Shown piece after piece: positions 21,013 through 63,904 of a DNA stretch of 64,000 nt (position 1 is its first letter; every line of letters starts with the position of its first letter). This DNA comes from Marsupella aquatica (lineage: Eukaryota; Plantae; Marchantiophyta): contig OZ316894.1 of assembly GCA_973895155.1 (NCBI GenBank), positions 15,430,699 to 15,494,698 on the forward strand, in the 5' to 3' direction. The notes beneath the pieces were generated by a model. That model did not search any database. It was given only the letters and a program-made list of their open reading frames with translations, and was not told where the DNA came from. Both the position numbers and the translations under genes were made by a program.

Positions 21013-21014
21013 GC

Positions 21015-23472: not shown

Positions 23473-23656
23473 GGATTTCATAGTTTCATCGTGAATGACA
23501 ATGATAGATGTCATGAACTATTATCTATTTAATCATGTCATATGAATTAAATGTATTACTCATTTTGCTTCATTGTATTTTGTTATCAATTTTATCTTGA
23601 AGGGTGTATGGTGAATGAATGCTAAAAATGTTTTTGTTATTGTAGAATCTGCAAGG

Positions 23657-25586: not shown

Positions 25587-25698
25587 GTTGCACACACAAT
25601 GTTTAGTATAGCATATTTTATTGCATAGGACATGCACAATCCGGCATAGTATATCATAGTTTGTCGTATAGTACTAGCATGTAATACCTAAACAGATA

Positions 25699-28557: not shown

Positions 28558-29219
28558 GATCGAAAACAAGAACTTTACACACAAAGTGACTTTTTATACG
28601 TCACTAAACATAGTCACTTAATAAAAATTGAATGATTATTTGTTAGTCTTTTGAAGTAACAACAATAAAACGAGAAAAAAAAACTACTGTGAAATATCAC
28701 ACGTCGAGTCAAACTCCAAACATGCGCACAGTGGTTCTCTTTTGTTTTCTGGTTGTTAACATTCCTATCCGACGTATGTGATATCTATAATTTAATGAGC
28801 ATTTGTCGATATAGTGAAAACATATGAGACAATTAGTGATAATCATGTAAAATATCACATGTCAAGCTTTAGCTCCAAACATGCGTACATGAATGTCAAC
28901 ATTGTCGAAATTTGTTTCACGATACCCACAAGTACCACTAAATTGTTAAGGGATAAGAAGAAAATTATTATGCGGATTACCACATGCCGAGTAAAACCTC
29001 CAAGCACGCGCGCACAAAAGTCTTTTCTATCTCTTTACATAGAGTGCTCTACTTTTAGTGAAGTGTGTCTAATGAGAAAAACTCAAAGTTTTATACAATT
29101 TAGAATGAAAAAATGTTCTATATTTAGCGGGGTTGAAATACTAGATAGGCGAGAAATCGTCACAACCCCAAATTAGCAGATATGGCTTATCTCAATTGAG
29201 TTTATCCATAACTCTAAAA

Positions 29220-29850
29220 CCCGGGCTTATCTTCCCTCCTCCCTCCTCCAACCCCTCCCTTCACCCGGGCCGGGCCTCCCTCCTCCCCCCCACCCGGGCC
29301 TCCCTCCACCCTGGCCGGGCCTCCTTCCCCCCCCCCCACCCGGGCCTCCCTCCACCCAGGCCGGCCCTCCTCCCTTCCCCCACCCGGCCCTCGTCCCCCT
29401 CCTCCCCGGGCCCCCCTCCACCCGGGCCGGGCCTCTCCCCCCACCCAGGCCTCCCTCCTCCCTGCTCCCACCCCGAGACCCCTCCCTTCACCCGGGCCGG
29501 GCCTCCCTCCACCCGGGCCGGCCCTCCTCCCTCCCCCCACTCGGGCCTCGTCCTCCTCCCCACCCGGTCTCCTCGCCCCCCCCCACCCGGGCCCCCCTCC
29601 ACCCGGGCCGGGCCTCCTCCCTCCCCCCACCCGGCCTCCTCCCCCCCCCACCCGGGCCCCCCTCCACCCAGGCCGGGCCTCCTCCCTCCCCCCACCCGGG
29701 CCTCCTCCCACCCCCCACCCGGGCCGGGCCTCCTCCCTCCCCCCACCCGAGCCTTCCTCCACCCGGGCCGGGCCGAGATGTAAAGCCGGGGCGTAAAGCC
29801 GGGGCCGGGGCCGGGTGACGAGAGGTAGGGGGGGGGCCGGGCCGGGGAAT
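29220..29850. repeat. Right subterminal GC-rich array (unit ~CCCACCCGGGCCGGGCCTCCT)
   Basis: Many degenerate tandem units; the core CCGGGCCGGG is the reverse complement of the left core CCCGGCCCGG. Confidence 0.9.
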
Positions 29851-39860: not shown

Positions 39861-39995
39861 GGTATGTTCTAAGTCATGAATTGAAATTGGATCCCTGGGA
39901 CGTAGGTGAATTTGATTCTATGAGGGTGGGCGGCCTTTGATTGGTAAAGGAAGTTGAACACCCCGATGTATTTGATGCTCCATGATTAGGCTGAA

Positions 39996-42900: not shown

Positions 42901-44884
42901 TTACTGAAAGAGGCAATTAACAAATTTAGGTGGCACCAGCACAATAAGGACTGTCCTTGTGAATGTGATATCTGTAGACCCTTAGGTGTTGTACCCATTT
43001 CTTCTTGTATGGCATCTACAAAGTCCATAACCTCAGTTCGTGGCTGGATAGAGGAAGCTCTCTGTCCTAGATTGCCTGAGAACGAGTGGCACCAAAAAGC
43101 CTGTATTATAGGTGAATGTGACAAATGTGGAGTAGAGAAGTTGGATTGGTGCACTCAGGAGTTGGACCCTGCACATAAACAAATGATCGATTGGCAGTCG
43201 TTTGAATATCATGACCTGGATGACACTGCCCAACAAAAGAGAGAGAAAAAGAAAGGGTCTAAAGAGAGCGCAACAAAGCAGGCTAGGCGATTGAGGATGG
43301 TTTATAAGAACACTCCCATGGTAGATTTTAAGAGGGCGGTGTTGGATACCATGAAAACATTTATTGTGCATAACTTTTGAGCACATTGGCAGTCGCAACA
43401 ATTTAGACAATGTCTCAAAACATTTCCAAGAGGGACAATTGTTTCTTCAATAGATTTTTCAGAAAATTACACTTTTTTGCCTCAAAATAAGATTCAGAGT
43501 CAACATTGGGACAATAAGCAAGTGACATTGTTAATCCATGTTACCTATAGACATAGGGAAGATGCCGATTCACTTGAAGCTGCAGTGGGTAGGCCTGTGC
43601 AAGCAGCACAAAATGCTGATAGGACTCGTGATATTATAGCCGATTACCATTTCTACATTAGTGATGATAACTGTCATGACACTCTTTTTGTGCAACATTG
43701 CATGGATGCACATTGGGAGTGGATGGCTGATCAGGGCATTCATGTTGATCAACATTGGGTTTGGTCTGATGGGGCTGCCTCTCAGTTCAAGGCCTGCAGA
43801 CCGTTTTATTACGTCAGTAGGTACTACTCGAGGTTTGGTGCACGGATGAAATGGTTCTTCCATGCCTCTGGCCATGGGAAGGGTGTTGTTGTGAGTATCT
43901 TTTGAACACACTTTGCAACCAATTCTGTGAATACTCGCCTTTCAACTGAAGTGTAGTAAGTTTCTAATGGAGTTGGATGTCCAGACTTGCACACCTAAGA
44001 GGCTTCTAATTTGTGTTTCTGGTATGCTATAATAGGATGCTCTCGGAGGTCACATCAAGACCGGGCTTGCAACTGAGCAACTGAAAGGCATCAATGGTCA
44101 TCGTCTGGAGGGTGCATCAGATGTGGTGAAGTTTTGCAAGCACAAGTTTGTCGTTGGTCAATTGCAAGAGTATGGTGATGTGCAACTCGTTCGACGTGTT
44201 TTTTGGGAAATTCCAGTTGGCATTGTAAACAGAAGGAAGAAGTGGGATTGTGATCCAATCAAGGATTGTAGATCTTTGCACTGCTTTGATGGATTTAGTA
44301 AGAGTTTGTCAACATTGTTGCAAGTTCGAGAGCTCAGTTGTTTTTGTGTAGCTTGTGTTGATGATGATCCAATGAATTGTGAGAACAAGGAATGGGTAGA
44401 CAAGTATCGCCTAGAGATGGTCAAAGGGGTATTGCAGGCAGATGTCAGACCTAATGTACAGAACATGGGAGAGGGTGAAGGACTACTTGACAACATCTCT
44501 CTGCCAGAATGTGTCCAATTGGGAGATTTCTATGCATGTCGTGCTTGTCAACCGAATCAAGATAATGTAGATTTCTACATTTATCAGTGCGAAGAGGTGC
44601 TCCACACAGTCACAAAGAGTTTTGCTGATGGGTACTAGGTACAATTCAAGGCAGGGGACATGGCCTTAAAGGGGAGGTGGTTCCAACCATATCTAGGATC
44701 AGAAAACAAGTTTGTCTTCAATTCTGCTTCTCCTTTCAGCTACTGCCACCCAGGGGAAGTCATTCACATTCGATTTGGTTTGACACCATGTGACATGCCC
44801 AAGGGAGGCAAGGGACGAGGTGCTAGATTTTACACACTAGACTCAGACACTATAGAAGCCATTTATGACTCGCTGCAGGTGTAG
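39996..44884 (+). pseudogene. Spliced DDD transposase, Sola2-like, with in-frame stops
   Basis: KPYYVR...CCCKQH; C-rich CIIGECDKCG; IDFSENY...QSQHW...QVTLL; ISDDNCHD; WSDGAASQFK; intron 43891-44035 joins GHGKGVV to DALGGHIK; RELSCFCVAC. Large intron ~41235-42763. Confidence 0.8.
41540..42645. repeat. Intronic minisatellite built from AAGGACT/AGTCCTT units, including the palindrome AAGGACTATAGTCCTT
   Basis: Dozens of copies of AAGGACTTTACT(A/C)CTTTGT and AAGGACTATAGTCCTT in ~40-bp higher-order units. Confidence 0.92.
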
Positions 44885-46933: not shown

Positions 46934-47286
46934 TGTGACGCCGATGACATGGTCCTTATTCTTTAATCTGATTAACTAGGCTGCTGTATGCAAGGAGTAG
47001 CTATTGATATTGTATGACAATTAGCAAGATGGCAAGAATAAGGGCAATCATGGCATTAAGAGTAGGGAAATAAAAGCTATGTCGCGGGTGGTTGGCGACC
47101 ATATCTCATTAAATATGTCACCAAATCCGGATCTGTAAAGAGCATTGGAAAGATCTGGTCAAGGCAAGTAAAATCGATATAAAACACTCTCAAAACGGAG
47201 GTGTATTAGGAAAGATATGATCTTATTAGTGTGACGGGTTAGTGTGTAACCCGGGATAGCGGATACGGATAGAGGTTAGCGGACAC
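46934..47286 (+). mobile_element. Family A LTR-like repeat, copy 3, left part
   Basis: Starts TGTGACGCCGATGACATGGTCC; reverse-complement match to 14985-15291; cut by the gypsy insertion. Confidence 0.85.
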
Positions 47287-50200
47287 TGTGATGCCTAGAT
47301 AGGAATCACTCGGCCGGTTAAGTGGGTAAAGCAGGAAGGCACCCTAGGAACACCTTAGTATAGGGACAAAACAAGGAAAATATAAACAATTAGGGGCAAC
47401 CATGGAACCCGGGCAGAGGCCGGAGGTAAGGCTGAGGGTGAAAACCCGATTAGGGTTAGGGCGCGTTAAGCGTCGGCGGCTAGGAAGGATCAACGGGAAG
47501 AAGGACCGGCAGAGGAGAGGGGTAAGGAGCGCTTGCAGGAGATGGTGGCTCATTTGCGAGCACGAACTAGGCAGACGACTACGGGAGGCCAACTACTGTC
47601 AGCTGCTTAGGCAAGCACTCGGGGAGAGAGTAGATACCGACGATCGACCTAAGGAGGGTATGAGCAACGTCAATCAAGCGGCACATTTCTGGGGATGCCT
47701 GTTCGAACGGGCAACTGAGTACATCAAGACTTACGAGGACGAGGAGTCAGAAAGGGCAGCTCGAGAACGGCAGGAGCTCGCTCGATTGTGGGAGCTGCAG
47801 AAGACGGCTTTCTTAGGAGGTGAACTCATCAAGGACGAGTTCCTGTGGACGCCTACTTCCAATCAACTCGACGATCTTCTGTTTTGCAAAGACAGCGTCG
47901 TCGGCATCCGAGAGGCCATCAAGAACTGCAACGACATACACTGGGAATTAAAGGGTAGCACGGAAAGGTGGACCCAGGCAACGGTGCTAGGAGAAACCTC
48001 CACGGCAGTAGAGATGAAGAGGAAGGGGGCCGTCAACGATGAAGCCACCCCGGCAAAAAGAACGAGGTCGGCGGCACCAAAGAGGCCAGCCGAGCAGCAG
48101 AGCAGGAGGCAGGGAGAAGCCGAAGAGGAGGAGGTCGATCCCATCAAGGCCATTCCAACCAGGGATGACACCTGGAAGGGCTGGGCGGCAACCCTACCGG
48201 TGGAGGTGCAACTACATTTTGCACGGGAGGAGGATGCATGCTTTACGGCCATGCAGACCAAGAAGTACCAAGGCTTCATGGCCGGATCCGGCTTGGAGGC
48301 CTTTGTAAGATTACCATGGCTGAAGCTGGAGGTACCGGAGTCAGACCTATTAGAATTTGTGGGGTCATGGGAACCCGAGACCAATTGCACGAGGATATAT
48401 GGGAAGGATTTCTATCTTACTCCCAAGGTAATTGCCGAAGTGTTTGGCTTGCCGATAGGCAATAAGACCAAAGTTGATACCAGGAAGACCTTGCCTGACA
48501 AGGAGTTCCGGTCGTTCCCCGGGCCATCAACGAAGAATGGCTTCTTCCAGAACACCTGCACCAACCCGCACATAGGAGAGATGATCGACTTCTTGCGGGT
48601 GACCATGCATTGTAACTTGCCGAGGGCAGAGATCGGCAAGGCACAGGTCTATCTGGCAGAAAGGCCAGACCCAAGCCGGGACTACAACGGGTATCTCCTC
48701 AACCAATTGAAGAAGATCTTAAAGGAGGAGCAGCAGGTAATTGGCATGGGGAGCGTGTCGCGGCTTGGCTATCACATGCCGCTGTTGTGCCGGTATGCCA
48801 GAGGTCAGACTTTTGCCCCGGTACTTCCCCTGCAGGTAAGGGCACCCGAGGAAGCTCCAACGCCGAGGCCGTTGGCTGAGAAGCCTCAACCACCTGTTAG
48901 TCCTACGATCGAGCAGGTGTTTAGGCCCAGGAAGGAAGACTTGCCGATGCAGCAACCAGGCATGCAGAGTCTGCTGAAACTACTGGAGAAAGAAAAGAAA
49001 TCGGCATCGGCAACAACAACGGCAACGGCAACAATGCAGGACACTACTACAGAGGTAGGCCTACACCGGCTCACAAGAGAAAACCCCTTTGCTGGAGACA
49101 AGGAGAGAATCAGGCCGGAATCCAAGCCAGGTGTTCGAATATACGTGGGAACCTCAAGCTCCGAATCTGAGGCAGAATTGCCTGAAGCTCCTACCGACGA
49201 AGAGAAGAGGGAGAAGCCGGACGTCCAAGAGGTAGAGGAGGCAGTGGAGGACTGCAGCCATGATAATTCCGGCTATGGGTCGGACCATCACGTTCCAGGA
49301 GTAAGGACCTGTGGCCGGTTTGTCCCCACACTTCCAAGGGTAGTGCGAGGGGACCCCAACCAGCAGAGTAGCCCTGAGTCTCCCCCACCAGATGTTGCTC
49401 CCCCGAGCTTCGACGGCATAAAACAGACGGTGCAGGAATTTCAGGAGCGAATCAAGCAGGAGGAGGAGGCCGCCCTGGCTAAGGAAAAGGATTTACCAGG
49501 AGGAGATTGGCCGGAGGACATCAGGCGGCTAGCCGAAAAAGGAAGCAAACCTCTAGCCACGATTGAAGAGATCCGCAGGACGGCTTGGGAGCAGAGGCCA
49601 CGATGGGCGATGCCGATCACTTCTACTTACTCCACCTACGCTAAGAATAGAGCCATGGAGTATGGTGAGATGTGTGGGGAACTTGCGCTCGGCATCTTTG
49701 GAGAGGAGTTGGAGGTAGGACCCTTTTTCCATAGGGAGCAGTTGGAGAAGCACCAATTAGAAGAAGCGGTGGCTTTAGAGAGAAGCAAGAAGGACGAGGT
49801 CATTCGGCGGCTTAGGAGGATGGAAGCCGAGATTGAAGATCTAAGGGCGGCCAAGAAAGCCCAAGATGAACTGCGGATTAAACGACATGAGCTGAACATC
49901 ATGCAGGGGCAGTTGGACACCGCGCAGGCTGATAATCAGAATATCAAGGATAAACTGACTCAGACGCAGGAAGAGTTGGCCGACACGATCAAAGAGAGGG
50001 AGAAGTGGAAGCAAGAGCTGAAGAATACAGAGGAGGCCCACATAACAGCCAACAGCCGGGCCATGGCGGAGACCCAAAGAAAGGAATGGGCGTTGAAAGG
50101 GGAGCTCGAGAAAATCCGCGGAGCCCTTGAGCAGAAGGAGGTCGAGTTAGGGAAATCCTATCAAGGGATTATGGCGCTGCATCAGGAGCTTGCGTCCTTG

Positions 50201-51922
50201 ACGGCCAGCTTCAAGGCTGACCTAAGGGAGAAGGACGAGATGCTCGAACAGACTTACGCCAAGATGAACCAGATGGAGTCTGTCATCATTGCAGAGCTCG
50301 ACAAGGAGCTAAGAGCAACCCAGGAGGAGAGGGCTACCTTGAAGAAGGAATTGGAGGAAGCCCACAGGGAGCAGGAGGAGGCCAAAAACTAGCTGGAGGG
50401 GGCACGTAAGGACCTGGATGAAACCCAAGAGGAGTTGGAGGAAATCACGAGGAAGATGGAGAACCTACAGCGGCGGGCCGACAACCAAATAGAGCGGCTG
50501 AAGAAACAAGCCGCAGTATTTAAATGCTTAGCTGCAGCAGGTCCATCTCCCGTTGGGACAAACCAGTTACCAGGGGTGGTAATTGCCGAAGGACAAGCCG
50601 CGCCACCTGCACCAGTGCCGGAAGTAAGTGGGAAGGGGAAGGGACCAGCTGCCGAGCCACCAACGAAGAAGAAGCGGAAACCTTCAGGGTCAAGGAGTAA
50701 TACGACTTCACAGGCCGTGGTGATCAAGGAGGTAGACCCAGCACCGACCCCAGACAGGGTCACGGCTAGGGATCCAACTACCCTAGGGGAAGGGGAGGCC
50801 GAAGCCGAGGGAGTGGCTGAGGCCGAAGCCGTGGGTATTGCCGAGGCCGGTGTCGAGGCTGAAGCCGAAGGTGGACCCAGTCAGGCCGATGGAGAGTTGA
50901 CTCAGTCAAGGGCAGGTAATCTGTCAGAGAATGAACCTACGGCAGTGGCTGAGGAGGAAGCGTTGGGGGCGTCCATTAAGGATCCACCACCGGTGTCGTG
51001 ACGGTGCAAGGGCGCCGTTCCTTTTAGGGAGGGCGGACGTGGAGGGAGGAGGCGTGAGTGGGCAGGGCGGGCGCGGATCTCCACGTTTAGGATTAGGATC
51101 AGAACCAGGAGCGGCCCTGACACTTAGCTTAGTGGGATTGCGGTCCCACTGGTAGGAGCAACACTTGTGCTCCTGCCTTGCTGTACATAGGTAGATTCGG
51201 GCAAGTAGATTACTGTTAAGTAGATTAGGCTTACGATGCAAAGAATGGCGGATCCACTACCAGGATAAGTACCTGGGCAGCGGGGAGCTCAGGGCCTCTT
51301 CTTTAGCAAGTTTTTAGTTTGCACCAGCCGGGCTGGGATCAAGTAGTACGAGAAGCTCTCGGTTAGTCATACAGTGACCCTTGTGTATATTCATGTTTCC
51401 TCATGCCTAAGAGCTGAATAGAGTTGGCCTCACGGCTTAGTTCGCAGAACTTGTGTATGAGATGTACTGTTTGTATGGCAAGTGCATGGTATGACTCAGT
51501 CAGAATGAGTCATTTTGCTATTTGTGTGTCGCATTAACTTGTGTGAAGAGTGCCCACATCAACAGAAGGAAGGAAAGTAAGCAGGGGAGTGAGAGTTGGA
51601 TGTGTCGAGCTGAGAGAGGTCTTAGCGGCTTAACCAAGCCTATTGGGGATCATTCCGGCGGCGGAATCCAAACATACCTAACAAGACGGAGGGGAAGACA
51701 GGGGAAGATAGGGGAAGGCCTATATTAGGCCGGCTACGTATCTCATGACCCAATGAAGGATCTGTCCAGTATATGTGTGTAAAATGTTAATAGTAGTAGT
51801 AGAAGGTTAGCAGCGTCCCATGCCGCTAAGCCGCGGAAACGGCCTCGCCAAGCACGAAACCTGCGGGAATCGGCTTGAGCTGGGGGGTTTCTTGGGTTTA
51901 GGGAGCCATGGGACGCACCACA
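47287..51922 (+). repeat. Gypsy 5' LTR (4636 bp)
   Basis: Colinear with the 3' LTR at a constant offset of 10860; roughly two dozen substitutions seen by eye. Confidence 0.96.
47402..51001 (+). CDS. LTR-encoded accessory protein (plant mobile/transposon-domain-like region plus long coiled coil); one premature TAG at 50390
   Basis: The 996-aa and 188-aa ORFs are in one frame; the TAG is GAG in the other LTR. Motif LLEFV..W....TRIYGKDFYLTPKVIAEVFGLP and ~270 aa of E/K-rich heptads. Alternative start at ATG 47660. Confidence 0.85.
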
Positions 51923-51945
51923 TTTTTGGCGCTAGATGGAGGGGG
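51923..51945 (+). promoter_or_regulatory. Gypsy primer binding site
   Basis: TTTT-TGGCGCTAGATGGAGGG directly after the LTR; resembles the PBS style of Tat/Athila-clade elements. The tRNA identity is not determined. Confidence 0.75.
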
Positions 51946-51991
51946 CATTTCTTAAGCCGTGAGATATGAAGTTAGAACGGAAGCGTAGGTA

Positions 51992-53800
51992 ATGACTGAC
52001 CTTACGCCGAGGGAAGAAAGAGTGATTCAACGGGAGAGAGCTCGACTGCAGCAGCTCGCCGGGTGGCATGATACACAGCGACTGAGAGGGGCAGAAAGAG
52101 CTGGTAGCTCCGAAACTGGAAGTGGCGTCGAAGAAGACATACCAGAAGAAGAGTCGGTAAGGAGAAGTGAGTCTCCAACCGACATGGGGGAACCAGAGGC
52201 ACGGCCAGACGAGAGGCCAGGGACCAGATTGAGCCAGCGTTCGTGCATACATTACAAGGCATTTCATGGGAGAGGAGATGAGGATCCGGACGAATGGTTG
52301 GATGATTTCGAGGGAACCGCTGCAGCAAATGGAGAATCGGCCATCAAGATGCAGATTCTTCCCGGCCTGTTCAAGGGTGAGGCTAGGCCTTGGTACAGAG
52401 CATTAGATGTGGAAGATCAAGCCATCTGGGATATCTTCAAAACACTCTTTGTTAAGGAGTTTCGACCCATTGGAACTTCAGAACTAGCAGTGCTGAAGTT
52501 GGGACAACTTCGGTTCAAGGAGAACAAATCCTTCTGGAAGTTCTTGCAACGCTTTCAGAAACTGGTAAGACGTACAAAGACCAATGCATCTGAAGGTATG
52601 CAACTTCAATGGTTGGTGAATGCTTTGCCACAGAAGATGAGTTTTGCAATTAGGAAGGAGAACCCGGAGACTTTAGCCGAAGCAATTAAGGATATTCAAT
52701 TATACATTAATGCAGATATCACAAGCCGGAAGAAACAGCTTAAGTCTGAGAGTTCCTCATCAGAGGAGGGATCACCCCATAAGAAAAAAGATAAGAAGAA
52801 AAAACATCCCAAGAAGTCTAGAAGTGATAAGTCAAGCTCGGATAGTGGGAGTAGCAAGAGTGAGTCATCTTCTAGTTCTGAAGAAGAAAAAACTAGGAAA
52901 AGGAAGGGCAGAAGGAGAGGGAAGACGAAAGTCAAGATGGAGGCTAAGCCACCAGATAACATCGTAGCCCTTACCGAGCAACTTAAGGCTATCATTGCAG
53001 AGGTAAAACCAAAGAAGAAGGTAGTACAGGAGGATAGCTCTGTATGGTGTGCCTTATGTTATAAAACCGGACACCATAAAGATACGTGTCCTAAGCTTAA
53101 TACTAATCATGTTCGGCATGTGGCCGAGATCAGACCATGTCAGGGAGAAGTAGAGTACTTTTTGGGAGATGCCACTGATAGTGTTTTCGGCATCAGTGAG
53201 ACTGGAGCACGAGACCTATCCAACAGACCTGCATCTCTGTGGTCAGGGTTAAGGAACAATCCAGGAGAGATGTATCCTCGGATTATTCAGAACCCGTCAG
53301 TACCTCCTAGGCCGAATGTGCAAAGATTTGCGGCGTGCTATAATTGTGGTCAACCTGGCCATTTTGCTAGAGAATGCCCGAATGCACGCAAACAGGGTGA
53401 TGGACAACCAGCTCAGCTATGTATGGGATGCCGACAGGAAGGTCATATGCTAGGGCAATGTCCTACTTGGTTGGCAGGCCTGGCCGCAAATCATAAGCTT
53501 TTGCCGATCAAGATCTTACCGCCAGGTACTACCCCCGGAGGAGTTCAAATCAACCACATCGAACTAGGATGGCAAGAGGATGCCGAGGCAGAGTTCGTAC
53601 CATCTGATGATGAGGCCGAAGCCCTATCAACCTTCTCAGAGGAGGATTTAGATCATGATTGCTACCGGGTCTCTACTCGATCTACCAGAAGGAAGGAAAG
53701 GTGGGATGGGCTGGCCAAAAATAAAGGGAAGGTTACGGAGGAAAGGATCGACTCTTCGTCAACATCAACAGAAGGAGAAGGGAGGGCTCCGGCAATATAG
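51992..53800 (+). CDS. Gypsy Gag with CCHC knuckles
   Basis: FHGRGDEDPDEWL...FKGEARPWY...FVKEF; CALCYKTGHHKDTC, CYNCGQPGHFAREC, CMGCRQEGHMLGQC. Confidence 0.92.
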   Translation: MTDLTPREERVIQRERARLQQLAGWHDTQRLRGAERAGSSETGSGVEEDIPEEESVRRSESPTDMGEPEARPDERPGTRLSQRSCIHYKAFHGRGDEDPDEWLDDFEGTAAANGESAIKMQILPGLFKGEARPWYRALDVEDQAIWDIFKTLFVKEFRPIGTSELAVLKLGQLRFKENKSFWKFLQRFQKLVRRTKTNASEGMQLQWLVNALPQKMSFAIRKENPETLAEAIKDIQLYINADITSRKKQLKSESSSSEEGSPHKKKDKKKKHPKKSRSDKSSSDSGSSKSESSSSSEEEKTRKRKGRRRGKTKVKMEAKPPDNIVALTEQLKAIIAEVKPKKKVVQEDSSVWCALCYKTGHHKDTCPKLNTNHVRHVAEIRPCQGEVEYFLGDATDSVFGISETGARDLSNRPASLWSGLRNNPGEMYPRIIQNPSVPPRPNVQRFAACYNCGQPGHFARECPNARKQGDGQPAQLCMGCRQEGHMLGQCPTWLAGLAANHKLLPIKILPPGTTPGGVQINHIELGWQEDAEAEFVPSDDEAEALSTFSEEDLDHDCYRVSTRSTRRKERWDGLAKNKGKVTEERIDSSSTSTEGEGRAPAI

Positions 53801-56800
53801 GTAAGCCATGAGCCCACCAGTGAAACCAATCCTTCACAAGATAGCGACTTCAATCGAGATCATCCTAAGTTGTTCTACCCCTCTGTTACGGCTAGTGTTA
53901 AGGAACAACTAAGAGAATTAGAAACCCTGGAGAATACCGAAGCCATTGCCAAGGATGTAAAACGAGCAAAAGCATTGTTTGCTTCGGAAGACCCAACAGC
54001 TGTGGAGACTAGCGTGGCAAAACTGGCCGAATCCAAGACGGAAACACCACCAGAAGAGAAGCCGATTGTTCCCTATGACCTGGCTAAAGATGTACTAGAA
54101 TCTAGAGTCTCGGCAACAGTAGGTCAACTATTGAAAAATAGCCCGTACTTCCGGAAGCAATTAAGGAAGGCTATTCTCGGCAAGCCGAGATTACCCAAGG
54201 TAGCAACCAGATCCGACGTACTAATGATAGAAGAAGATCAAGGAGCCCCAGCATTACCATTAATGATTCAAGGAGAATTATTACTACGGGTACCCATCGA
54301 TGGAGGATCAGGGGTATGTATTATGATTGATTCAACAGCAAAAGGGTGGGGTCTAACACCGGAGATGACTGGAAGAGTGTTGAACATGGCCAATGGATAT
54401 CAGGTCATTCCGACGGGAGTGTTAACCGGCATCAAGACAGAGATAGGAGGTATCTTCTTTAGCATTAACTATGTAGTAATGAAGCCGGTAAATCCTACGT
54501 CATTCCGGCTATTGATTGGTAGGCCATGGCTGTACCTAGCCGAGGTAATAGAAGATTGGGGTAAAAAGCAGTTCACTTTCGGGACCCCCTCTATCACGGT
54601 ATCCTGGGACACTAAGGATGACCATAGGAAAAGCATAAGGGAAGTAGATGGGTACGACAATGGACTGGAGTCAGCCGATGAAGTACGTTGGTTAGAATGC
54701 CTCACTAACCTAACCGAAGAAGGTGTCTTTGGACCAGAGGTACCCCCCAGCGGATTATGGCAAGAACCAATGGAAGGTGACTTGGAAGAAGAAGACGAAG
54801 AGGTCGAGGACTGCTTTACAATAGAATCCACCTTTTTAGCTGCAATTCCGGAGGAAGTAAAGGATGTAGACCAATTGGATGAAACGGCTAAGTGGGGAGC
54901 AGTAGCAGGGACAGTGGATTTTCTGCAGGCGTTGTGGCAGAGCCGACGGGGTCCACAACGCCATCGATCATCGGCAAGGAATTAAATACCAAGGGATCGG
55001 CATACAAGCCGATTACGAGGGCAGAACAAATTGAGGCCCTATTAGAAGCCGAGAGAGCACAGCGGCCTAACTCTCAGGAGCAAGAAGTGGATGAGATGGA
55101 CAGACACGATCCAGAGCCAAGGCAGGAAGGGGAGCCAACCACTAATTCAAAACCGAATAGACCGGTAAGGGGACAATCTATGGACACCAAGGAAGGGACC
55201 GACTCGGCTAGTCCAGCCGAGATCCCAGTTTATGGAGGTATGAGATTAGAGAGACTGGAAGCCGAACTGGACCCGAATTTGAAGAAGCAGATTAATATGA
55301 TCCAAGCACGGCAATATCGGAAGCTCGACTTAGGAGAGGGAAGAGAACTGAACTTAGGGAGAAACCTAGCACCTGAGCTCGAGAAAGAGATCAGTGACTT
55401 ATTGATTGAATTTCAGGATGTGTTTGCATGGAGTCACCAAGATCTAAAGGGAGTAGATCCAACACTAGGGGAACATCGAATTGATCTCATGTTAGGAGCC
55501 AAATCATTTTGACAACCAATTCGAAGGATGAACCCGAAGTATTCCCTGCTGGTCAAAACAGAAATCGACAAACTAGTGGAAGCTGGATTCATCACTCCAG
55601 TCCTGCATTCAGACTGGGTGTCTCCAATTGTGATAGTTCCCAAGAAAGCTGGACCCGATGGTAAACCCAAGATCCGGGTTTGTCAGGATTACAGGAAGCT
55701 GAATGAAACAACATTAAAAGACCATTTTCCTTTACCGTTTACTGATATGGTACTAGACATGGTAGCCAGTCATGAACTATATTCATTCATGGATGGATAC
55801 TCTGGTTATAACCAAATCAGGATTCGGCAGGAAGACCAAATCAAGACGGCCTTCATCACGGAATGGGGGATCTATGTCTTCAATCGTATGTCGTTTGGAC
55901 TCTGCAACGCACCAGCTATGTTCCAACGATTAATGGTGAACATTTTTCATGATTACTTGAGAAAGTTCATGGAAATCTTCATTGATGACTTTGCAGTATT
56001 CGGGAAGGCATCGAAACATGCTAAATACCTCAGGAAAACCTTCATGAGATGTAGAGAGGTGGGTCTCAAGTTACACCCAGATAAATGTTTTTTTGCAGTA
56101 ACCGAGGGGGTGCTACTAGGTCACAAGGTATCAAGGAAGGGCATTGAGATTGACAAAGGTAAGCTAGCAGTATGGCTAGATATCATGCAACCTAAGAACA
56201 TAAAGGATGTAAGATCCTTCTTGGGATGCATTGGTTACTATCGCCGGTTCATCAAGGATTTTGCCAAGCTGGCTTTACCATTAATCAATATGCTCAAGGC
56301 AGGAGCAGACTTCGAACCCACACCCGAATGAGTCACAGCGGTGGTAGAATTGAAGCAGATGTTAGTAGAGGCCCCAGTCATGATAGCACCGGACTGGAAC
56401 AAAGATTTTCATGTTTTTGTAGATGTCTCGGGCTTCTGTATTGGCTCAGTACTAAGTCAGTTGGATGAGAAAGGAAGGGACCATCCCATATACTTCGCAA
56501 GCCGTCAGCTTGCCGATGCCGAACGGAACTACTCTACCACGGAAAGAGAAGCATTAGGAGTCATTTATTCTTGTAAAAAGTTTAGGCATTATTTACTAGG
56601 GTACAAGGTAATCTTTCATACTGATCATGAAAGTTTGAAGTACCTAGTCAATAAGCCGGACCTTACAGGCAGAGTAGCAAGATGGATTTTGCTATTACAG
56701 GAGTTTGACTATGAGCTGAGGATCAAGCCGGGAAAGTTACATGCCAATGCCGACTTCTTTTCAAGGATCACAGGTAAACCTGCCACGGATTGCATCGATG

Positions 56801-58158
56801 ATCGATTCCCCGACGAGGAGCTATTCGTTGTGGAAATAGCTGGTACATGGTACCCTGAGATTTTACAATTTCTCAGCACTTCCAGATTACAGCCAGGATT
56901 AAGCCGAGAGCAAGCCGCAGTCTTTGTGCGGAAGGTCAGACAGTATCAGTGCATTAAAGGCATACTGCACAAGCATGGAATCAACGGCACGATTCAAAGA
57001 TGTTTGGAAAAGAGAGAGGTAAAATGAGTCCTACGGGCCATGCATGGAGAGGAGGCCGGAGGACATTTTGCCCCAGTAACCACATCTAAGAAGATATTAA
57101 ATGCCGGTTACTGGTGGCCCACCTTGCACAAAGATGTCTATCAGTTTATCAAACAATGCGATCCTTGTCAACGAGCGGGAGGACCAAGGGCGTCCACCAG
57201 GCATCCACTGCACCCTATTCTACCTCTGGCACCATTCGAGAAGTGGGGTATTGATTACATTGGACCTCTGAAACCACTGACCCACCCTCGACGGAACAAG
57301 TACATAATCCTGGCTACGGATTATGCAACTAAATGGGTAGAGGCCAGACCAACAACAAAGGATGATGCAATTACTACGGCTAGATTCATGTATGAGCAGA
57401 TCTTCACCAGGTATGGAGCACCCCTAGAATTAGTTAGTGATAGAGGAACCCATTTTTTGAATGATATAATTAGTCGTTTAAATGAGCAGTATTTAGTTAA
57501 ACATAGGCCTACTACTCCCTACCATCCAAAGGCAAACGGGTTGACAGAACGAGCAAACGGAATCATAGGAAAGATATTGAACAAGACAGTAGCTCAGAAC
57601 AAACTCGATTGGGATGATAAATTGTTTGCTTCTGTTTTTGCTTACAATCTTGCCTATAAATCCACTACCGGTCATACACCCTTCTTCTTAACCTTTGGAC
57701 AAGAAGCCCTGGTACCCATGCAACTTGAGATACCGACATTTCAAGTTACAATTGAGGAAAGAGCCTCAGCGGAGGAGAGCCTAAAGGAGCGAGAATATAG
57801 GTTAGAAGCTTTAGAGGAAGCGAGAATGATTTCAGCCGAGAGAGTAGAATATAGACAGAATATCATGAAGCAGCAGTATGATAAAAGGTTAAAAGTAGTT
57901 AGTATTCATACCGGTGATCTTGTGCTACTTTATGACAGTAGGTATAGTAGGTTTCCAGGAAAGCTTTACACTCGCTAGTTAGGACCCTTTAGAGTAACCA
58001 TGATGTTCCCCAATGGCTCCGTACAATTGGCCAACATTACGGGAGAGGTATATCCAGTTCGCATCCATTATGACCGCCTCAAGAAATACTATATGGACGA
58101 AGATGAAGTTGTTCGCGAGGACGCTTCACAATTAAGTGGGGAGCTATGTGATGCCTAG
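53801..58158 (+). pseudogene. Gypsy Pol (PR, RT, RNase H, INT) with four in-frame stops and one frame change near 54900-54985
   Basis: PIDGGSG; RVCQDYRKLN, MDGYSGYNQI, FIDDFAV; FVDVSG, NYSTTEREAL; GGHF...CDPCQ, WGIDYIGP, VSDRGTHF, ANGLTER. The frame runs through the PPT to a TAG at 58156-58158 inside the 3' LTR. Confidence 0.93.
58134..58146 (+). promoter_or_regulatory. Polypurine tract
   Basis: AAGTGGGGAG(CTA) immediately before the TG of the 3' LTR. Confidence 0.7.
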
Positions 58159-61100
58159 ACAGGAATCACTCGGCCGGTTAAGTGGGTAAAGCAGGAAGGC
58201 ACCCTAGGAACACCTTAGTATAGGGACAAAACAAGGAAAATATAAACAATTAGGGGCAACCATGGAACCCGGGCAGAGGCCGGAGGTAAGGCTGAGGGTG
58301 AAAACCCGATTAGGGTTAGGGCGCGTTAAGCGTCGGCGGCTAGGAAGGATCAACGGGAAGAAGGACCGGCAGAGGAGAGGGGTAAGGAGCGCTTGCAGGA
58401 GATGGTGGCTCATTTGCGAGCACGAACTAGGCAGATGACTACGGGAGGCCAACTACTGTCAGCTGCTTAGGCAAGCACTCGGGGAGAGAGTAGATACCGA
58501 CGATCGACCTAAGGAGGGTATGAGCAACGTCAATCAAGCGGCACATTTCTGGGGATGCCTGTTCGAACGGGCAACTGAGTACATCAAGACTTACGAGGAC
58601 GAGGAGTCAGAAAGGGCAGCTCGAGAACGGCAGGAGCTCGCTCGATTGTGGGAGCTGCAGAAGACGGCTTTCTTAGGAGGCGAACTCATCAAGGACGAGT
58701 TCCTATGGACGCCTACTTCCAATCAACTCGACGATCTTCTGTTTTGCAAAGACAGCGTCGTCGGCATCCGAGAGGCCATCAAGAACTGCAACGACATACA
58801 CTGGGAATTAAAGGGTAGCACGGAAAGGTGGACCCAGGCAACGGTGCTAGGAGAAACCTCCACGGCAGCAGAGATGAAGAGGAAGGGGGCCGTCAACGAT
58901 GAAGCCACCCCGGCAAAAAGAACGAGGTCGGCGGCACCAAAGAGGCCAGCCGAGCAGCAGAGCAGGAGGCAGGGAGAAGCCGAAGAGGAGGAGGTCGATC
59001 CCATCAAGGCCATTCCAACCAGGGATGACACCTGGAAGGGCTGGGCGGCAACCCTACCGGTGGAGGTGCAACTACATTTTGCACGGGAGGAGGATGCATG
59101 CTTTACGGCCATGCAGACCAAGAAGTACCAAGGCTTCATGGCCGGATCCGGCTTGGAGGCCTTTGTAAGATTACCATGGCTGAAGCTGGAGGTACCGGAG
59201 TCAGACCTATTAGAATTTGTGGGGTCATGGGAACCCGAGACCAATTGCACGAGGATATATGGGAAGGATTTCTATCTTACTCCCAAGGTAATTGCCGAAG
59301 TGTTTGGCTTGCCGATAGGCAATAAGACCAAAGTTGATACCAGGAAGACCTTGCCTGACAAGGAGTTCCGGTCGTTCCCCGGGCCATCAACGAAGAATGG
59401 CTTCTTCCAGAACACCTGCACCAACCCGCACATAGGAGAGATGATCGACTTCTTGCGGGTGACCATGCATTGTAACTTGCCGAGGGCAGAGATCGGCAAG
59501 GCACAGGTCTATCTGGCAGAAAGGCCAGACCCAAGCCGGGACTACAACGGGTATCTCCTCAACCAATTGAAGAAGATCTTAAAGGAGGAGCAGCAGGTAA
59601 TCGGCATGGGAAGCGTGTCGCGGCTTGGCTATCACATGCCGCTGTTGTGCCGGTATGCCAGAGGTCAGACTTTTGCCCCGGTACTTCCCCTGCAGGTAAG
59701 GGCACCCGAGGAAGCTCCAACGCCGAGGCCGTTGGCTGAGAAGCCTCAACCACCTGTTAGTCCTACGATCGAGCAGGTGTTTAGGCCCAGGAAGGAAGAC
59801 TTGCCGATGCAGCAACCAGGCATGCAGAGTCTGCTGAAACTACTGGAGAAAGAAAAGAAATCGGCATCGGCAACAACAACGGCAACGGCAACAATGCAGG
59901 ACACTACTACAGAGGTAGGCCTACACCGGCTCACAAGAGAAAACCCCTTTGCTGGAGACAAGGAGAGAATCAGGCCGGAATCCAAGCCAGGTGTTCGAAT
60001 GTACGTGGGAACCTCAAGCTCCGAATCTGAGGCAGAATTGCCTGAAGCTCCTACCGACAAAGAGGAGAGGGAGAAGCCGGACGTCCAAGAGGTAGAGGAG
60101 GCAGTGGAGGACTGCAGCCATGATAATTCCGGCTATGGGTCGGACCATCACGTTCCAGGAGTAAGGACCTGTGGCCGGTTTGTCCCCACACTTCCAAGGG
60201 TAGTGCGAGGGGACCCCAACCAGCAGAGTAGCCCTGAGTCTCCCCCACCAGATGTTGCTCCCCCGAGCTTCGACGGCATAAAACAGACGGTGCAGGAATT
60301 TCAGGAGCGAATCAAGCAGGAGGAGGAGGCCGCCCTGGCTAAGGAAAAGGATTTACCAGGAGGAGATTGGCCGGAGGACATCAGGCGGCTAGCCGAAAAA
60401 GGAAGCAAACCTCTAGCCACGATTGAAGAGATCCGCAGGACGGCTTGGGAGCAGAGGCCACGATGGGCGATGCCGATCACTTCTACTTACTCCACCTACG
60501 CTAAGAATAGAGCCATGGAGTATGGTGAGATGTGTGGGGAACTTGCGCTCGGCATCTTTGGAGAGGAGTTGGAGGTAGGACCCTTTTTCCATAGGGAGCA
60601 GTTGGAGAAGCACCAATTAGAAGAAGCGGTGGCTTTAGAGAGAAGCAAGAAGGACGAGGTCATTCGGCGGCTTAGGAGGATGGAAGCCGAGATTGAAGAT
60701 CTAAGGGCGGCCAAGAAAGCCCAAGATGAACTGCGGATTAAACGACATGAGCTGAACATCATGCAAGGGCAGTTGGACACCGCGTAGGCTGATAATCAGA
60801 ATATCAAGGATAAACTGACTCAGACGCAGGAAGAGTTGGCCGACACGATCAAAGAGAGGGAGAAGTGGAAGCAAGAGCTGAAGAATACAGAGGAGGCCCA
60901 CATAACAGCCAACAACCGGGCCATGGCGGAGACCCAAAGAAAGGAATGGGCGTTGAAAGGGGAGCTCGAGAAAATCCGCGGAGCCCTTGAGCAGAAGGAG
61001 GTCGAGTTAGGGAAATCCTATCAAGGGATTATGGCGCTGCAGCAGGAGCTTGCGTCCCTGACGGCCAGCTTCAAGGCCGACCTAAGGGAGAAGGACGAGA

Positions 61101-62782
61101 TGCTCGAACAGACTTACGCCAAGATGAACCAGATGGAGTCTGTCATCATTGCAGAGCTCGACAAGGAGCTAAGAGCAACCCAGGAGGAGAGGGCTACCTT
61201 GAAGAAGGAATTGGAGGAAGCCCACAGGGAGCAGGAGGAGGCCAAAAACGAGCTGGAGGGGGCACGTAAGGACCTGGATGAAACCCAAGAGGAGTTGGAG
61301 GAAATCACGAGGAAGATGGAGAACCTACAGCGGTGGGCCGACAACCAAACAGAGCGGCTGAAGAAACAAGCCGCAGTATTTAAATGCTTAGCTGCAGCAG
61401 GTCCATCTCCCGTTGGGACAAACCAGTTACCAGGGGTGGTAATTGCCGAAGGACAAGCCGCGCCACCTGCACCAGTGCCGGAAGTAAGTGGGAAGGGGAA
61501 GGGACCAGCTGCCGAGCCACCAACGAAGAAGAAGCGGAAACCTTCAGGGTCAAGGAGTAATACGACTTCACAGGCCGTGGTGATCAAGGAGGTAGACCCA
61601 GCACCGACCCCAGACAGGGTCACGGCTAGGGATCCAACTACCCTAGGGGAAGGGGAGGCCGAAGCCGAGGGAGTGGCTGAGGCCGAAGCCGTGGGTATTG
61701 CCGAGGCCGGTGTCGAGGCTGAAGCCGAAGGTGGACCCAGTCAGGCCGATGGAGAGTTGACTCAGTCAAGGGCAGGTAATCTGTCAGAGAATGAACCTAC
61801 GGCAGTGGCTGAGGAGGAAGCGTTGGGGGCGTCCATTAAGGATCCACCACCGGTGTCGTGACGGTGCAAGGGCGCCGTTCCTTTTAGGGAGGGCGGACGT
61901 GGAGGGAGGAGGCGTGAGTGGGCAGGGCGGGCGCGGATCTCCACGTTTAGGATTAGGATCAGAACCAGGAGCGGCCCTGACACTTAGCTTAGTGGGATTG
62001 CGGTCCCACTGGTAGGAGCAACACTTGTGCTCCTGCCTTGCTGTACATAGGTAGATTCGGGCAAGTAGATTACTGTTAAGTAGATTAGGCTTACGATGCA
62101 AAGAATGGCGGATCCACTACCAGGATAAGTACCTGGGCAGCGGGGAGCTCAGGGCCTCTTCTTTAGCAAGTTTTTAGTTTGCACCAGCCGGGCTGGGATC
62201 AAGTAGTACGAGAAGCTCTCGGTTAGTCATACAGTGACCCTTGTGTATATTCATGTTTCCTCATGCCTAAGAGCTGAATAGAGTTGGCCTCACGGCTTAG
62301 TTCGCAGAACTTGTGTATGAGATGTACTGTTTGTATGGCAAGTGCATGGTATGACTCAGTCAGAATGAGTCATTTTGCTATTTGTGTGTCGCATTAACTT
62401 GTGTGAAGAGTGCCCACATCAACAGAAGGAAGGAAAGTAAGCAGGGGAGTGAGAGTTGGATGTGTCGAGCTGAGAGAGGTCTTAGCGGCTTAACCAAGCC
62501 TATTGGGGATCATTCCGGCGGCGGAATCCAAACATACCTAACAAGACGGAGGGGAAGACAGGGGAAGACAGGGGAAGGCCTATATTAGGCCGGCTACGTA
62601 TCTCATGACCCGATGAAGAATCTGTCCAGTATATGTGTGTAAAATGTTATTAGTAGTAGTAGAAGGTTAGCAGCGTCCCATGCCGCTAAGCCACGGAAAC
62701 GGCCTCGCCAAGCACGAAACCTGCGGGAATCGGCTTGAGCTGGGGGGTTTCTTGGGTTTAGGGAGCCATGGGACGCACCACA
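58147..62782 (+). repeat. Gypsy 3' LTR (4636 bp)
   Basis: Near-identical to the 5' LTR; followed by the GACAC TSD. Confidence 0.96.
58262..61861 (+). CDS. Second copy of the LTR-encoded accessory protein; private stops at ~58436 (TGA) and 60785 (TAG)
   Basis: ORFs 58520-60787 and 60836-61861 are in one frame; the stops are CGA and CAG in the 5' LTR. Confidence 0.85.
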
Positions 62783-63255
62783 GACACGGATAGAGGTTAG
62801 CGGACATGGATAGCGGATATGGACAGAGGTTAGCGGACACAGATAGCGAATACGGATAGAGGTTAGCGGACATGGATAGCGGATACAGATAGAGGTTAGC
62901 GGACACGGATAGCGGATATGGATAGAGGTTAGCGGACATGGATAGCGGATACGGATAGGTTAGTGGACACGGATAGCGGATACGGATACCGGATAGTGGC
63001 CAGTGGCTAGCGGATTTAGATTGGGGTTAGACTAAACCCGGGACAATGGATAGCGGACAACGGATAGCGGACAACCGACACGGACAACAGACATGGACAA
63101 TGGATAGCGGACAACGGACACGGACACGGATAGTAGACAACAGGCACAGATAGCAGACACGGATAACGGACATGGACAACGAACACGGACAACGGACACG
63201 GACAACTGACACGGACAACGGACACGGATAGCGGACACGAACATGGATAGCGGCT
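62783..63255 (+). repeat. Tandem arrays (~32-bp GGATAGAGGTTAGCGGACAYGGATAGCGGATA units, then 6-7-bp CGGACA-type units)
   Basis: Directly visible; the first unit lies left of the gypsy insertion at 47254-47286. Confidence 0.9.
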
Positions 63256-63904
63256 TAGCTCGAGGCCACGGGTTAACTCTTCTAAGGTTAGATAGGGTAG
63301 CTAGGCTAGCCGAACTCGGGTTAGCTACGTAACTTGGGTTAGCGTAGCAATGAGTACCCCCTCTCGGTTGCGGGGGCATAACTTTCTGTGTATTTGGCCA
63401 AATCGGCTATAATTGACCTCGTTGGAAAGAGGAGCTCAAGCCGCTTCCAACGCTGCTATCCACGCAGCAAATGGTTGAATAGAGGAATCAGGAGAGGAGG
63501 CGCAAGCTCGCAAAAACCATGGAGGAGGGCCAAATCCGAAGTACATAGCCAATTCGAGATAGAAATAAAGTTGCGAGTTAGGGTTCAGTAGTTAGAGATA
63601 GTGGCGGCTCTGTTAGGGCTGGGATGGGGCTCCAGCAGTGTAGTATCCACCCATTTGGGCTCAGTATGAGAGTATATAGAGCAGCCCCCCGGTAGAGGCA
63701 AGGGGGGGGGGCCTTCAGTTGTGTGATCTCACTTAGAATGAGCAGCAGGGAGGAGCTCTGTGCAAGCAAGGCTGGACTTGGACGTTGCGTGTTGGGGAGA
63801 GCTTGGTTGTGCTATTACTCAGGGAGTAATCAGCCAAGCTTCACAGTTGCAACGGGTTGCTAGGTTTGCGAGTTGGATTGTGGCTCTTTCTAGTGGGCAG
63901 CACA
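62783..63904 (+). mobile_element. Family A LTR-like repeat, copy 3, right part
   Basis: 63270-63900 is the reverse-complement match to 13268-13610 plus 14445-14720. Possible end ...GGGCAGCACA at 63904. Confidence 0.8.

What the first reader, a model, noticed from the sequence alone, without database searches (positions are those of the whole stretch)
47287..62782. Gypsy retrotransposon with a ~1100-1200-aa gene encoded inside each 4.6-kb LTR
Seen: both LTRs are defined by TG..CA ends, a GACAC TSD, an adjacent PBS and a PPT. Each carries a sense ORF covering up to 3.6 of 4.6 kb. The stops are private to each copy (TAG 50390 vs GAG; TGA ~58436 vs CGA; TAG 60785 vs CAG). The inserting element therefore had one uninterrupted ORF of 1199 aa (1113 aa from ATG 47660). 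Known: plant Athila/Tat/Ogre extra ORFs normally sit in the internal region. LTR-borne ORFs are best known from MMTV sag and the HIV nef overlap, both much shorter. Inference: an accessory gene has been absorbed into U3, is duplicated at every retrotransposition and would survive in solo LTRs.
Basis: partly seen in the sequence, partly recalled or inferred. Interest (0 to 1): 0.88.

Follow-up and report, generated by a model that had tools for sequence, protein, structure and literature searches.

The report
Large accessory gene inside retrotransposon LTRs
A jumping gene, likely from a liverwort or related plant, carries a protein gene of about 1,200 codons inside each of its two terminal repeats, a part that is normally non-coding, and the protein is predicted to be a nuclear factor that may protect the element from being silenced.

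Summary
Observation confirmed. A young Ty3/Gypsy element (47287-62782) has true 4,636-bp LTRs (24 differences, TG..CA, 5-bp TSD, PBS, PPT). Each LTR holds one 1,199-codon sense frame, 78% of its length, broken only by stops private to one copy. The LTR has no inner repeat. In four public runs the ORF bins sit at 3.5-4.1 times internal depth, like the non-coding LTR end. Other copies' termini map to the same boundaries. So the ORF is likely LTR-borne family-wide, though no contig spans a second whole LTR. Family variants show modest purifying selection (17 of 40 synonymous, 11.6 expected, P=0.043). A 225-residue domain has relatives in the liverwort Calypogeia, as does the RT. The element is Athila-like. 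The protein has no transmembrane segment, two NLS-like motifs and a long coiled coil. Weak leads point to ATHILA-ORF1/Transposase_32/PMD/DUF1985 (VANC) kin, so an anti-silencing role is my best guess. U3 placement, expression and function are untested. Ten literature searches found no such plant architecture. This scan has noted LTR-borne ORFs in other genomes (mostly fungal), and none matched this sequence. New variant of a known kind.

The parts
47282..47286 (+). 5' target-site duplication (5 bp)
   Evidence: identical to 62783-62787
47287..51922 (+). 5' LTR, 4,636 bp, TG...CA
   Evidence: no internal repeat at E<=0.01
47381..47386 (+). TATA-like word 21 nt before the first ATG; possible promoter of the accessory gene (untested)
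   Evidence: motif scan
47402..51001 (+). accessory ORF, 1,199 codons (1,113 from ATG 47660); one private stop at 50390-50392
   Evidence: all contigs of four runs read another letter at 50390 (table 3)
48017..48067 (+). bipartite NLS-like motif, residues 206-222 (pattern recalled)
   Evidence: (PAKRTR at residue 217) and translation
48194..48871 (+). conserved globular domain, residues 265-490; weak leads to ATHILA ORF-1 / Transposase_32 / PMD / DUF1985
49733..50536 (+). long predicted coiled coil, residues about 778-1045
   Evidence: helices 778-915 and 920-995 at pLDDT mostly 70-89; weak ATG16/KIF21A coiled-coil hits below cut-off
50657..50680 (+). SV40-type NLS-like motif, residues 1086-1093 (pattern recalled)
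   Evidence: found in the 3' copy's C-terminal piece; coordinates transferred by the 10,860-nt offset
51002..51922 (+). non-coding 3' part of the LTR; TATA-like word at 51721, likely promoter and R-U5 (inferred)
   Evidence: 10 of the 12 indel variants shown table 4 lie here
51927..51944 (+). primer-binding site; tRNA-Asn type by recall, not tested
51989..53800 (+). gag (Retrotrans_gag, zf-CCHC), ends in a stop
53801..54985 (+). protease region in the gag frame (aspartic-protease-like motif seen by eye; no Pfam hit), followed by a frame change
54892..58158 (+). pol frame RT-RNaseH-integrase with four internal stops; no aRH, no chromodomain; runs over the PPT and ends 12 nt inside the 3' LTR
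58134..58143 (+). polypurine tract, inside the integrase reading frame
58147..62782 (+). 3' LTR, 4,636 bp, TG...CA
58262..61861 (+). second copy of the accessory ORF; private stops at 58436 and 60785
62783..62787 (+). 3' target-site duplication

Best explanation
This is a young Ty3/Gypsy retrotransposon whose two 4.6-kb LTRs each contain a 1,199-codon accessory gene, likely a family-wide trait of an Athila-like lineage of liverworts or related plants, and the protein is predicted to be a nuclear chromatin factor that would help the element resist host silencing. Shown: LTR anatomy; a gag-pol frame that fills the internal region and ends inside the 3' LTR; the PPT directly at the integrase end; an ORF that was open at insertion; diverged relatives of its domain; no membrane segment. 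Inferred, step 1: because plus-strand synthesis starts at that PPT, everything downstream, including the slot where angiosperm Athila elements keep their sense extra ORF, is copied as LTR. So the gene is duplicated at each transposition and stays behind in solo LTRs. Inferred, step 2 (about 65%): the gene lies in U3, the genomic RNA starts near the LTR's 3' end (TATA-like word at 51721), and the gene is expressed from its own promoter near the LTR's 5' end or from a spliced RNA. Inferred, step 3 (about 45%): the residue 265-490 domain is a distant relative of ATHILA-ORF1/Transposase_32/PMD/DUF1985 and, like VANC and MAIN/MAIL1, acts on DNA or chromatin against silencing, with the coiled coil as an oligomerisation or partner arm.
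For: Anatomy. No sub-repeat in the LTR and no LTR-internal similarity. Family level: median depth of ORF bins over 10 gag-to-protease bins is 3.76, 4.07, 3.48 and 3.61 in runs X1, X2, X3, X6; ORF over non-coding LTR is 0.71-1.24. Joints of other copies start at 47285-47287/58147 (three rows) or end at 51922 (three rows) (tables 5, 5c). Contigs of X6 and X8 leave the stretch exactly at 47287 (table 8; table 7). ORF-deleting joints among the 15 of 216 shown have depth 117-341 against several 100,000. Constraint: 17 of 40 non-private variants are synonymous, 11.6 expected, P=0.043, none nonsense; 14 of 25 in codons 87-780. 10 of 12 indel variants shown are in the non-coding LTR end; the other two are a compensating pair near the ORF end. 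22 relatives at E<=0.001 among 1.84 billion, best 41% over 225 aa. Of 9 hits looked up, 4 are Calypogeia fissa proteins. The RT groups with Calypogeia RTs (8-tip clade, support 0.99). Function leads: Atlas gives Transposase_32 (0.89) and ATHILA (0.88) for the window domain and DUF1985 (0.86, 13% of members) and PMD (0.85, 20%) for a Calypogeia relative (one source). VANC21-DNA is rank 1 of 48,161 chains. Maximum 19-residue hydropathy is 0.82, with NLS-like motifs. PMD-DUF1985 structural similarity and VANC anti-silencing: bioRxiv 10.1101/2024.09.27.615353, passages. ATHILA ORF-1 in Athila 3'F eORFs and PMD in Ogre eORFs: PMC6317226, supplement 4.
Against: No listed contig spans a second whole LTR, and summed contig depth is no copy number. 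The selection signal is modest (rough dN/dS about 0.55, my arithmetic). It rests on 40 sites from tables that showed 40 of 1,094 and 40 of 276 variants, and several sites come from the same contigs. Codons 1-86 and 1046-1199 show no synonymous excess (3 of 14). One uncompensated 1-nt deletion is listed in one contig. No Pfam family of the proposed group matched the domain or any of 17 aligned relatives at E<=10. The named Atlas hits are under 0.9, which the tool calls leads only. The VANC21 match is Z 2.7, rmsd 6.8, 5% identity, far under what the tool calls meaningful, from a model of mean pLDDT 62.7. Foldseek found nothing at E<=0.001. hhalign of the domain profile against a protein with a short Transposase_32 match was negative.
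Confidence: 0.5

Rival explanations
1. Same LTR-borne gene, but the protein serves particle assembly, nuclear import, integration targeting or cell-to-cell movement rather than anti-silencing, as has been proposed for 'env-like' extra ORFs.
For: Long coiled coil and NLS-like motifs fit a scaffold or import role. The review PMC7264820 lists such roles for extra ORFs. The ties to VANC/PMD are all sub-threshold.
Against: No transmembrane segment. All named Atlas hits and the top fold hit point to one group of plant transposon proteins that includes known chromatin factors.
Confidence: 0.22
2. The ORF lies in a long R/U5 rather than U3: transcription starts at the LTR's 5' end, so the gene is the first cistron of the genomic RNA, like the 5' extra ORF of Ogre, and gag-pol needs splicing or internal initiation.
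For: TATAAA at 47381, 95 nt into the LTR. ATG 47402 has an ACCATGG context. A relative (P0007) aligns from residue 91, next to the second ATG.
Against: It would need a minus-strand strong-stop DNA of about 4.5 kb and would put 3.6 kb of coding sequence before gag (inference). A TATA-like word also lies about 200 nt before the LTR end.
Confidence: 0.15
3. The ORF is a passenger: a host or transposon gene recently trapped in the LTR, carried along and slowly decaying without use to the element.
For: Only modest synonymous excess. No RNA evidence either way. GC3 of the ORF (0.63) differs from gag-pol (0.45).
Against: Relatives at 22-41% identity keep the domain, and one (P0148) has the same domain-then-coiled-coil layout. 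Frame-preserving indel pattern and no nonsense among 40 family variants. No trace of a second element's ends inside the LTR.
Confidence: 0.09
4. The long repeat is an assembly artefact or a recombination/tandem product of elements with short LTRs and an internal ORF.
For: No second full-length LTR could be read (no genome held; contigs short).
Against: TSD, PBS and PPT sit exactly at the repeat ends. The 24 differences are mostly transitions (21 of 24). No inner repeat. Family depth is flat across the LTR and other copies share the termini.
Confidence: 0.04

Closest known systems
Athila clade (non-chromovirus, OTA) with sense extra ORF behind pol (ATHILA ORF-1, PF03078) - PMC6317226, passages and supplements 4 and 5
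   Same: GAG-PR-RT-RH-INT order, 5-bp TSD, no aRH or chromodomain, size in range (15.5 kb), a sense extra ORF directly downstream of pol in RNA order; Atlas lead to PF03078
   Different: here the PPT lies before the ORF, so the ORF is inside both LTRs and the internal region has no 3' non-coding part; no Pfam match to PF03078; RT falls in a liverwort-containing clade apart from the angiosperm hits
Ogre/Retand (Tat) extra ORFs with PMD, Transposase_28 or SMC-like coiled coil - PMC6317226 supplement 4; PMC7264820 main text
   Same: domain-plus-coiled-coil accessory protein with NLS-like motifs; LTRs of several kb
   Different: those ORFs are described in the internal region, mostly antisense; Tat elements have aRH, this one does not
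VANC (DUF1985) of VANDAL transposons and MAIN/MAIL1 (PMD) - bioRxiv 10.1101/2024.09.27.615353 and PMC8616336, passages
   Same: transposon-encoded or -derived nuclear proteins acting on silencing; weak Atlas and fold leads
   Different: homology not established here; VANC is encoded by a DNA transposon; PMC8616336 calls PMD angiosperm-only
Rice Retrosat2/RIRE3/RIRE8 (LTR over 3 kb, ORF0) - PMC3485330, passages
   Same: long LTRs plus an extra ORF of unknown function
   Different: ORF0 is described upstream of gag-pol, separate from the LTR in the passages read
MMTV sag, HIV nef and foamy-virus bel2 overlapping U3 (recalled, no call)
   Same: protein-coding sequence inside an LTR
   Different: vertebrate retroviruses, much shorter ORFs, no sequence relation tested or expected

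Membership tests
LTR (structural definition) | direct repeat with TG..CA ends, flanked by a TSD, PBS behind the 5' copy, PPT before the 3' copy | tested here: met
LTR (structural definition) | same termini used by other copies | tested here: met
   joints and loose ends at 47285-47287/58147 and 51922; short contigs, each showing one end only
U3-encoded gene | ORF lies upstream of the genomic RNA start site within the LTR | not testable with these tools
   no RNA holder listed; TATA-like words at both LTR ends
Ty3/Gypsy | domain order RT-RNaseH-integrase behind gag | tested here: met
Athila clade | non-chromovirus without aRH, 5-bp TSD | tested here: met
   no RVT_3/aRH or chromodomain hit in the pieces or in intact relatives; pol aligns to P0035 over 1,048 columns in one frame; criteria
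Athila clade | PBS for tRNA-Asp or tRNA-Asn | not tested
   tRNA-Asn type by recall only; no tRNA gene in the window
Athila clade | RT-RH-INT phylogeny within reference Athila | tested here: inconclusive
   RT tree of 105 sequences without clade-labelled references: a 66-tip clade with Calypogeia and Riccia (0.997) beside the angiosperm hits
Tat clade (Ogre, Retand, TatI-III) | additional aRH domain | tested here: not met
Phygy / Selgy | 4-bp TSD (NCGN in Phygy), short elements | tested here: not met
   5-bp TSD, 15.5 kb; they share the fully coding internal region
env-like membrane protein | transmembrane segment | tested here: not met
   maximum 19-residue hydropathy 0.82 in both natural pieces
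ATHILA ORF-1 / Transposase_32 / PMD / DUF1985 | profile match above the Pfam cut-off | tested here: not met
   no hit at E<=10 for the domain or 16 relatives;
ATHILA ORF-1 / Transposase_32 / PMD / DUF1985 | shared fold or remote homology | tested here: inconclusive
   Atlas 0.85-0.89; VANC21 rank 1 but Z 2.7
VANC-type anti-silencing factor | sequence-specific DNA binding and loss of silencing marks on the own element | not testable with these tools
   needs experiments

The most novel reading that the evidence does not exclude
A bryophyte lineage of Athila-like retrotransposons has turned its LTR into a self-contained gene for a VANC/PMD-like anti-silencing protein, so that every LTR, solo LTRs included, can make a trans-acting factor that keeps the family's promoters open; this would extend the PMD/DUF1985 group to non-seed plants and suggest what Athila 'env-like' ORFs really do.
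Probability: 0.25. Interest if true: 0.87.

Novelty: new variant of a known kind. Interest (0 to 1): 0.63.

Why it matters
LTRs are treated as non-coding, and solo LTRs as dead ends. An LTR that is 78% one constrained gene, in a very abundant family, means solo LTRs could be protein-coding units spread through a genome. It also means annotation pipelines that look for extra ORFs only between the LTRs would miss them. If the weak link to PMD/DUF1985 holds, the element gives a direct test of a long-open question, the function of plant retrotransposon extra ORFs, in a group of plants with a tractable model (Marchantia).

Tried and rejected
No genome is held for this window, so copies could not be collected. 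Word-index protein searches with the ORF (residues 60-520) and with alignment A2 among longer proteins found nothing. Metagenome scan with the ORF: 53 pattern matches, none confirmed. With the RT: 27 loci, mostly 30-41% identical, none with a tblastn match to the ORF or seven of its relatives at E<=1e-4. Viral contigs: nothing for the RT; the alignment was too variable to search. Single-sequence fold of 996 residues was poor (pLDDT 45). Foldseek pdb and viral, and the second look, gave no match; a PDB sequence search gave only two chance-level hits. No RNA holder listed. A scan for a relic PPT behind the ORF is uninformative because the pattern missed the true PPT, and the best match of the PPT-LTR junction inside the LTR was 15 of 27; the 'PPT shift' origin therefore has no direct trace. 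The four Calypogeia models CAM6101869/70 and 79/80 first looked like two LTR copies of one element, but their order is mirrored, so that was dropped. Three Calypogeia contigs hold both an ORF relative and an RT relative 25, 39 and 71 accession numbers apart: a hint of co-location only. The 18 LTR-to-LTR differences in the ORF (7 synonymous, 5.9 expected) look like neutral decay after insertion and say nothing on selection. Look-ups of earlier findings by sequence, by genome and by a second word set returned nothing.
Full report
Observation. Self-BLAST of the window shows one ungapped direct repeat of 4,636 bp, 47287-51922 and 58147-62782, with 24 substitutions. Of these, 21 are transitions. 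Both copies run TG to CA, GACAC flanks the element on both sides, a PBS-like stretch follows the 5' copy and a purine tract precedes the 3' copy. One sense frame runs from ATG 47402 to the stop at 50999-51001, 1,199 codons or 78% of the LTR, with a second in-frame ATG at 47660. It is broken once in the 5' copy (codon 997) and twice in the 3' copy (codons 59 and 842), never at the same place. The other five frames hold 26-59 stops, and 1,000 shuffles gave at most 293 open codons.

The element. The internal 6.2 kb holds gag (Retrotrans_gag, zf-CCHC), a protease-like region without Pfam hit, RT, RNase H and integrase, in Ty3/Gypsy order. This copy has five stops and one frame change there, whereas relatives P0035 and P0043 are single polyproteins. 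One of the stops (57025) is private to this copy; the others were not among the rows shown. The pol frame runs across the PPT and ends 12 nt inside the 3' LTR, so there is no 3' internal non-coding region. The closest named RTs are from the liverworts Calypogeia fissa (64-68%) and Riccia sorocarpa (57-59%), against about 50% for angiosperm hits. In a FastTree of 105 RT pieces (hits covering over 230 query residues; shorter hits left out), the window's RT sits in an 8-tip clade with three Calypogeia RTs (support 0.99), inside a 66-tip clade with Riccia. The host is therefore likely a liverwort or related non-seed plant; this is inference. By the criteria of PMC6317226 (passages, supplements 4 and 5), the 5-bp TSD, lack of aRH and chromodomain, and size fit Athila, and not Tat, Phygy or Selgy. 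The tree had no clade-labelled references, so I call it Athila-like. The PBS type (tRNA-Asn) is recalled, not tested.

Is the long LTR real for the family? The LTR has no inner repeat and no similarity to the internal region, so it is not two short LTRs around a gene. Twelve public runs of nine studies hold the stretch or part of it, five of them over half of its words. I laid 8 of the 14 listed. In X1, X2, X3 and X6 the median depth of nine ORF bins is 3.5-4.1 times that of ten gag-to-protease bins (RT-integrase bins left out because other families inflate them in X3 and X6). It is 0.71-1.24 times that of two non-coding LTR bins. An internal ORF would sit at internal depth. A ratio above two fits solo LTRs, but the tool warns that summed contig depth is no copy number. 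Six joint rows start at the LTR's first base (47285-47287, 58147) or end at its last (51922), as expected when other copies insert into copies of the family. Contigs of X6 and X8 leave the stretch exactly at 47287. ORF-deleting joints among the 15 of 216 shown are at depth 117-341, against several 100,000. Limit: no listed contig spans a whole LTR, so the family-wide claim rests on depth and termini.

Is the ORF under selection? All contigs of four runs read another letter at the 5' copy's stop. From the tables (40 of 1,094 and 40 of 276 variants shown) 47 ORF sites were classed. Seven that also differ between the two LTRs were set aside. Of 40, 17 are synonymous, 23 missense and none nonsense, against 11.6 synonymous expected (P=0.043). 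The signal lies in codons 87-780 (14 of 25); both ends show none (3 of 14). The sites are not independent. Of 12 indel variants shown (of 17), 10 fall in the 0.9-kb non-coding LTR end and two form a compensating pair near the ORF end. In one search, four of five indel clusters in the ORF keep the frame; two of those may be alignment renderings of substitutions. A full HMMER search with residues 60-520 gave 22 relatives at E<=0.001, the best 41% identical over 225 residues. Four of the nine hits looked up are Calypogeia proteins, and P0148 repeats the domain-then-coiled-coil layout. This is a real, old, fast-evolving coding sequence under moderate constraint.

The protein. It has a basic N-terminus, a conserved domain at residues 265-490, a low-complexity linker, a coiled coil of about 270 residues, an acidic tail, two NLS-like motifs and no transmembrane segment. 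Pfam gives no family for the domain or its relatives. The Atlas, by features, lists an unnamed cluster at 0.91, then Transposase_32 (0.89) and ATHILA (0.88) for the window domain. For a Calypogeia relative it lists unnamed plant clusters, DUF1985 (0.86) and PMD (0.85); these are leads only and count as one source. A model from 17 sequences (pLDDT 62.7) has VANC21 bound to DNA as rank 1 of 48,161 chains, but at Z 2.7 and rmsd 6.8, which alone means nothing. Foldseek, the PDB sequence search and hhalign against a short Transposase_32 match were negative. What gives the leads some weight is that they point to one group. A preprint (10.1101/2024.09.27.615353, passages) reports that PMD-C resembles DUF1985 of the anti-silencing protein VANC, and ATHILA ORF-1 and PMD are the commonest named domains of Athila and Ogre extra ORFs.

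Mechanism. Plus-strand synthesis begins at the PPT, so whatever lies between the PPT and the RNA's 3' end becomes LTR (established retroelement biology). Here the PPT is at the integrase end, and the accessory gene follows in the same RNA order as Athila's sense extra ORF. It is therefore copied into both LTRs at each transposition and left in solo LTRs. Whether this arose by a PPT shift or is ancestral is open; my relic-PPT scan failed its own control. I favour U3 (about 65%), with the genomic RNA starting near the TATA-like word at 51721 and the gene driven from near 47381 or by splicing, but no RNA run was listed. I favour an anti-silencing role (about 45%) over a structural one. Rivals are given with their odds.

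Literature. Ten searches found no plant LTR retrotransposon with a long ORF inside its LTR. PMC7264820 (parts 1 and 2 of 3, the whole main text) places extra ORFs in the internal region. I saw passages only of PMC6317226, PMC3485330, PMC12885004, PMC8616336, PMC10085805 and PMC6431247. The other listed papers I saw as search listings only. Steinbauerova et al. 2011 is not held. Additional files 1 and 3 of PMC6317226, which list each element and its eORFs, were too large to read and could hold LTR-overlapping ORFs. The preprint's supplements are closed. MMTV sag, nef and bel2 are recalled. Earlier notes of this scan describe LTR-borne ORFs in Gypsy elements of other genomes, mostly fungal; none matched this sequence. 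They are unchecked leads.

Verdict. Real, well supported as architecture, unresolved as to function: a new variant of a known kind. Interest 0.63.

Noticed in passing
window 6688-12419: A young Ty1/Copia element: a 136-nt repeat pair 99% identical (6688-6823, 12284-12419) around one uninterrupted 1,537-codon gag-integrase-RT frame.
   Followed up: partly
window 20400-29800: Two GC-rich repeat fields (20403-20873, 29219-29790) enclose a protein-kinase-like ORF (22651-23112), a RING-finger ORF (25092-25586) on + and hAT-transposase pieces (DUF659, hAT dimerisation; 25699-28593) on -; possibly one hAT element carrying a kinase and a RING gene.
   Followed up: partly
window 1164-6662: CACTA-like transposase pieces (DUF4218, DUF4216), interrupted or bordered by the Copia element.
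   Followed up: partly
window 39990-44638: Several long + strand ORFs without Pfam hit, split by a 20-nt-unit repeat field at 41600-42520; by eye DNA-transposase-like (cysteine clusters, an SDG...GHGKG pattern, recalled).
   Followed up: no
window 46934-47286 and 62783-63900; 13265-17663: The Gypsy element inserted into a repeat with 33-nt-like tandem units whose two halves match, inverted, a repeat present in several pieces at 13265-17663, with a LINE-like ORF end at 13612-14316.
   Followed up: no
window 53798-54985: A stop after gag and a frame change before RT; whether these are family traits or damage of this copy was not resolved. Relatives P0035 and P0043 are single polyproteins.
   Followed up: partly
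window 51014: A subfamily differs around the ORF's last codons but shows a TGA at about the same place (loose ends in X1, X2, X8).
   Followed up: no
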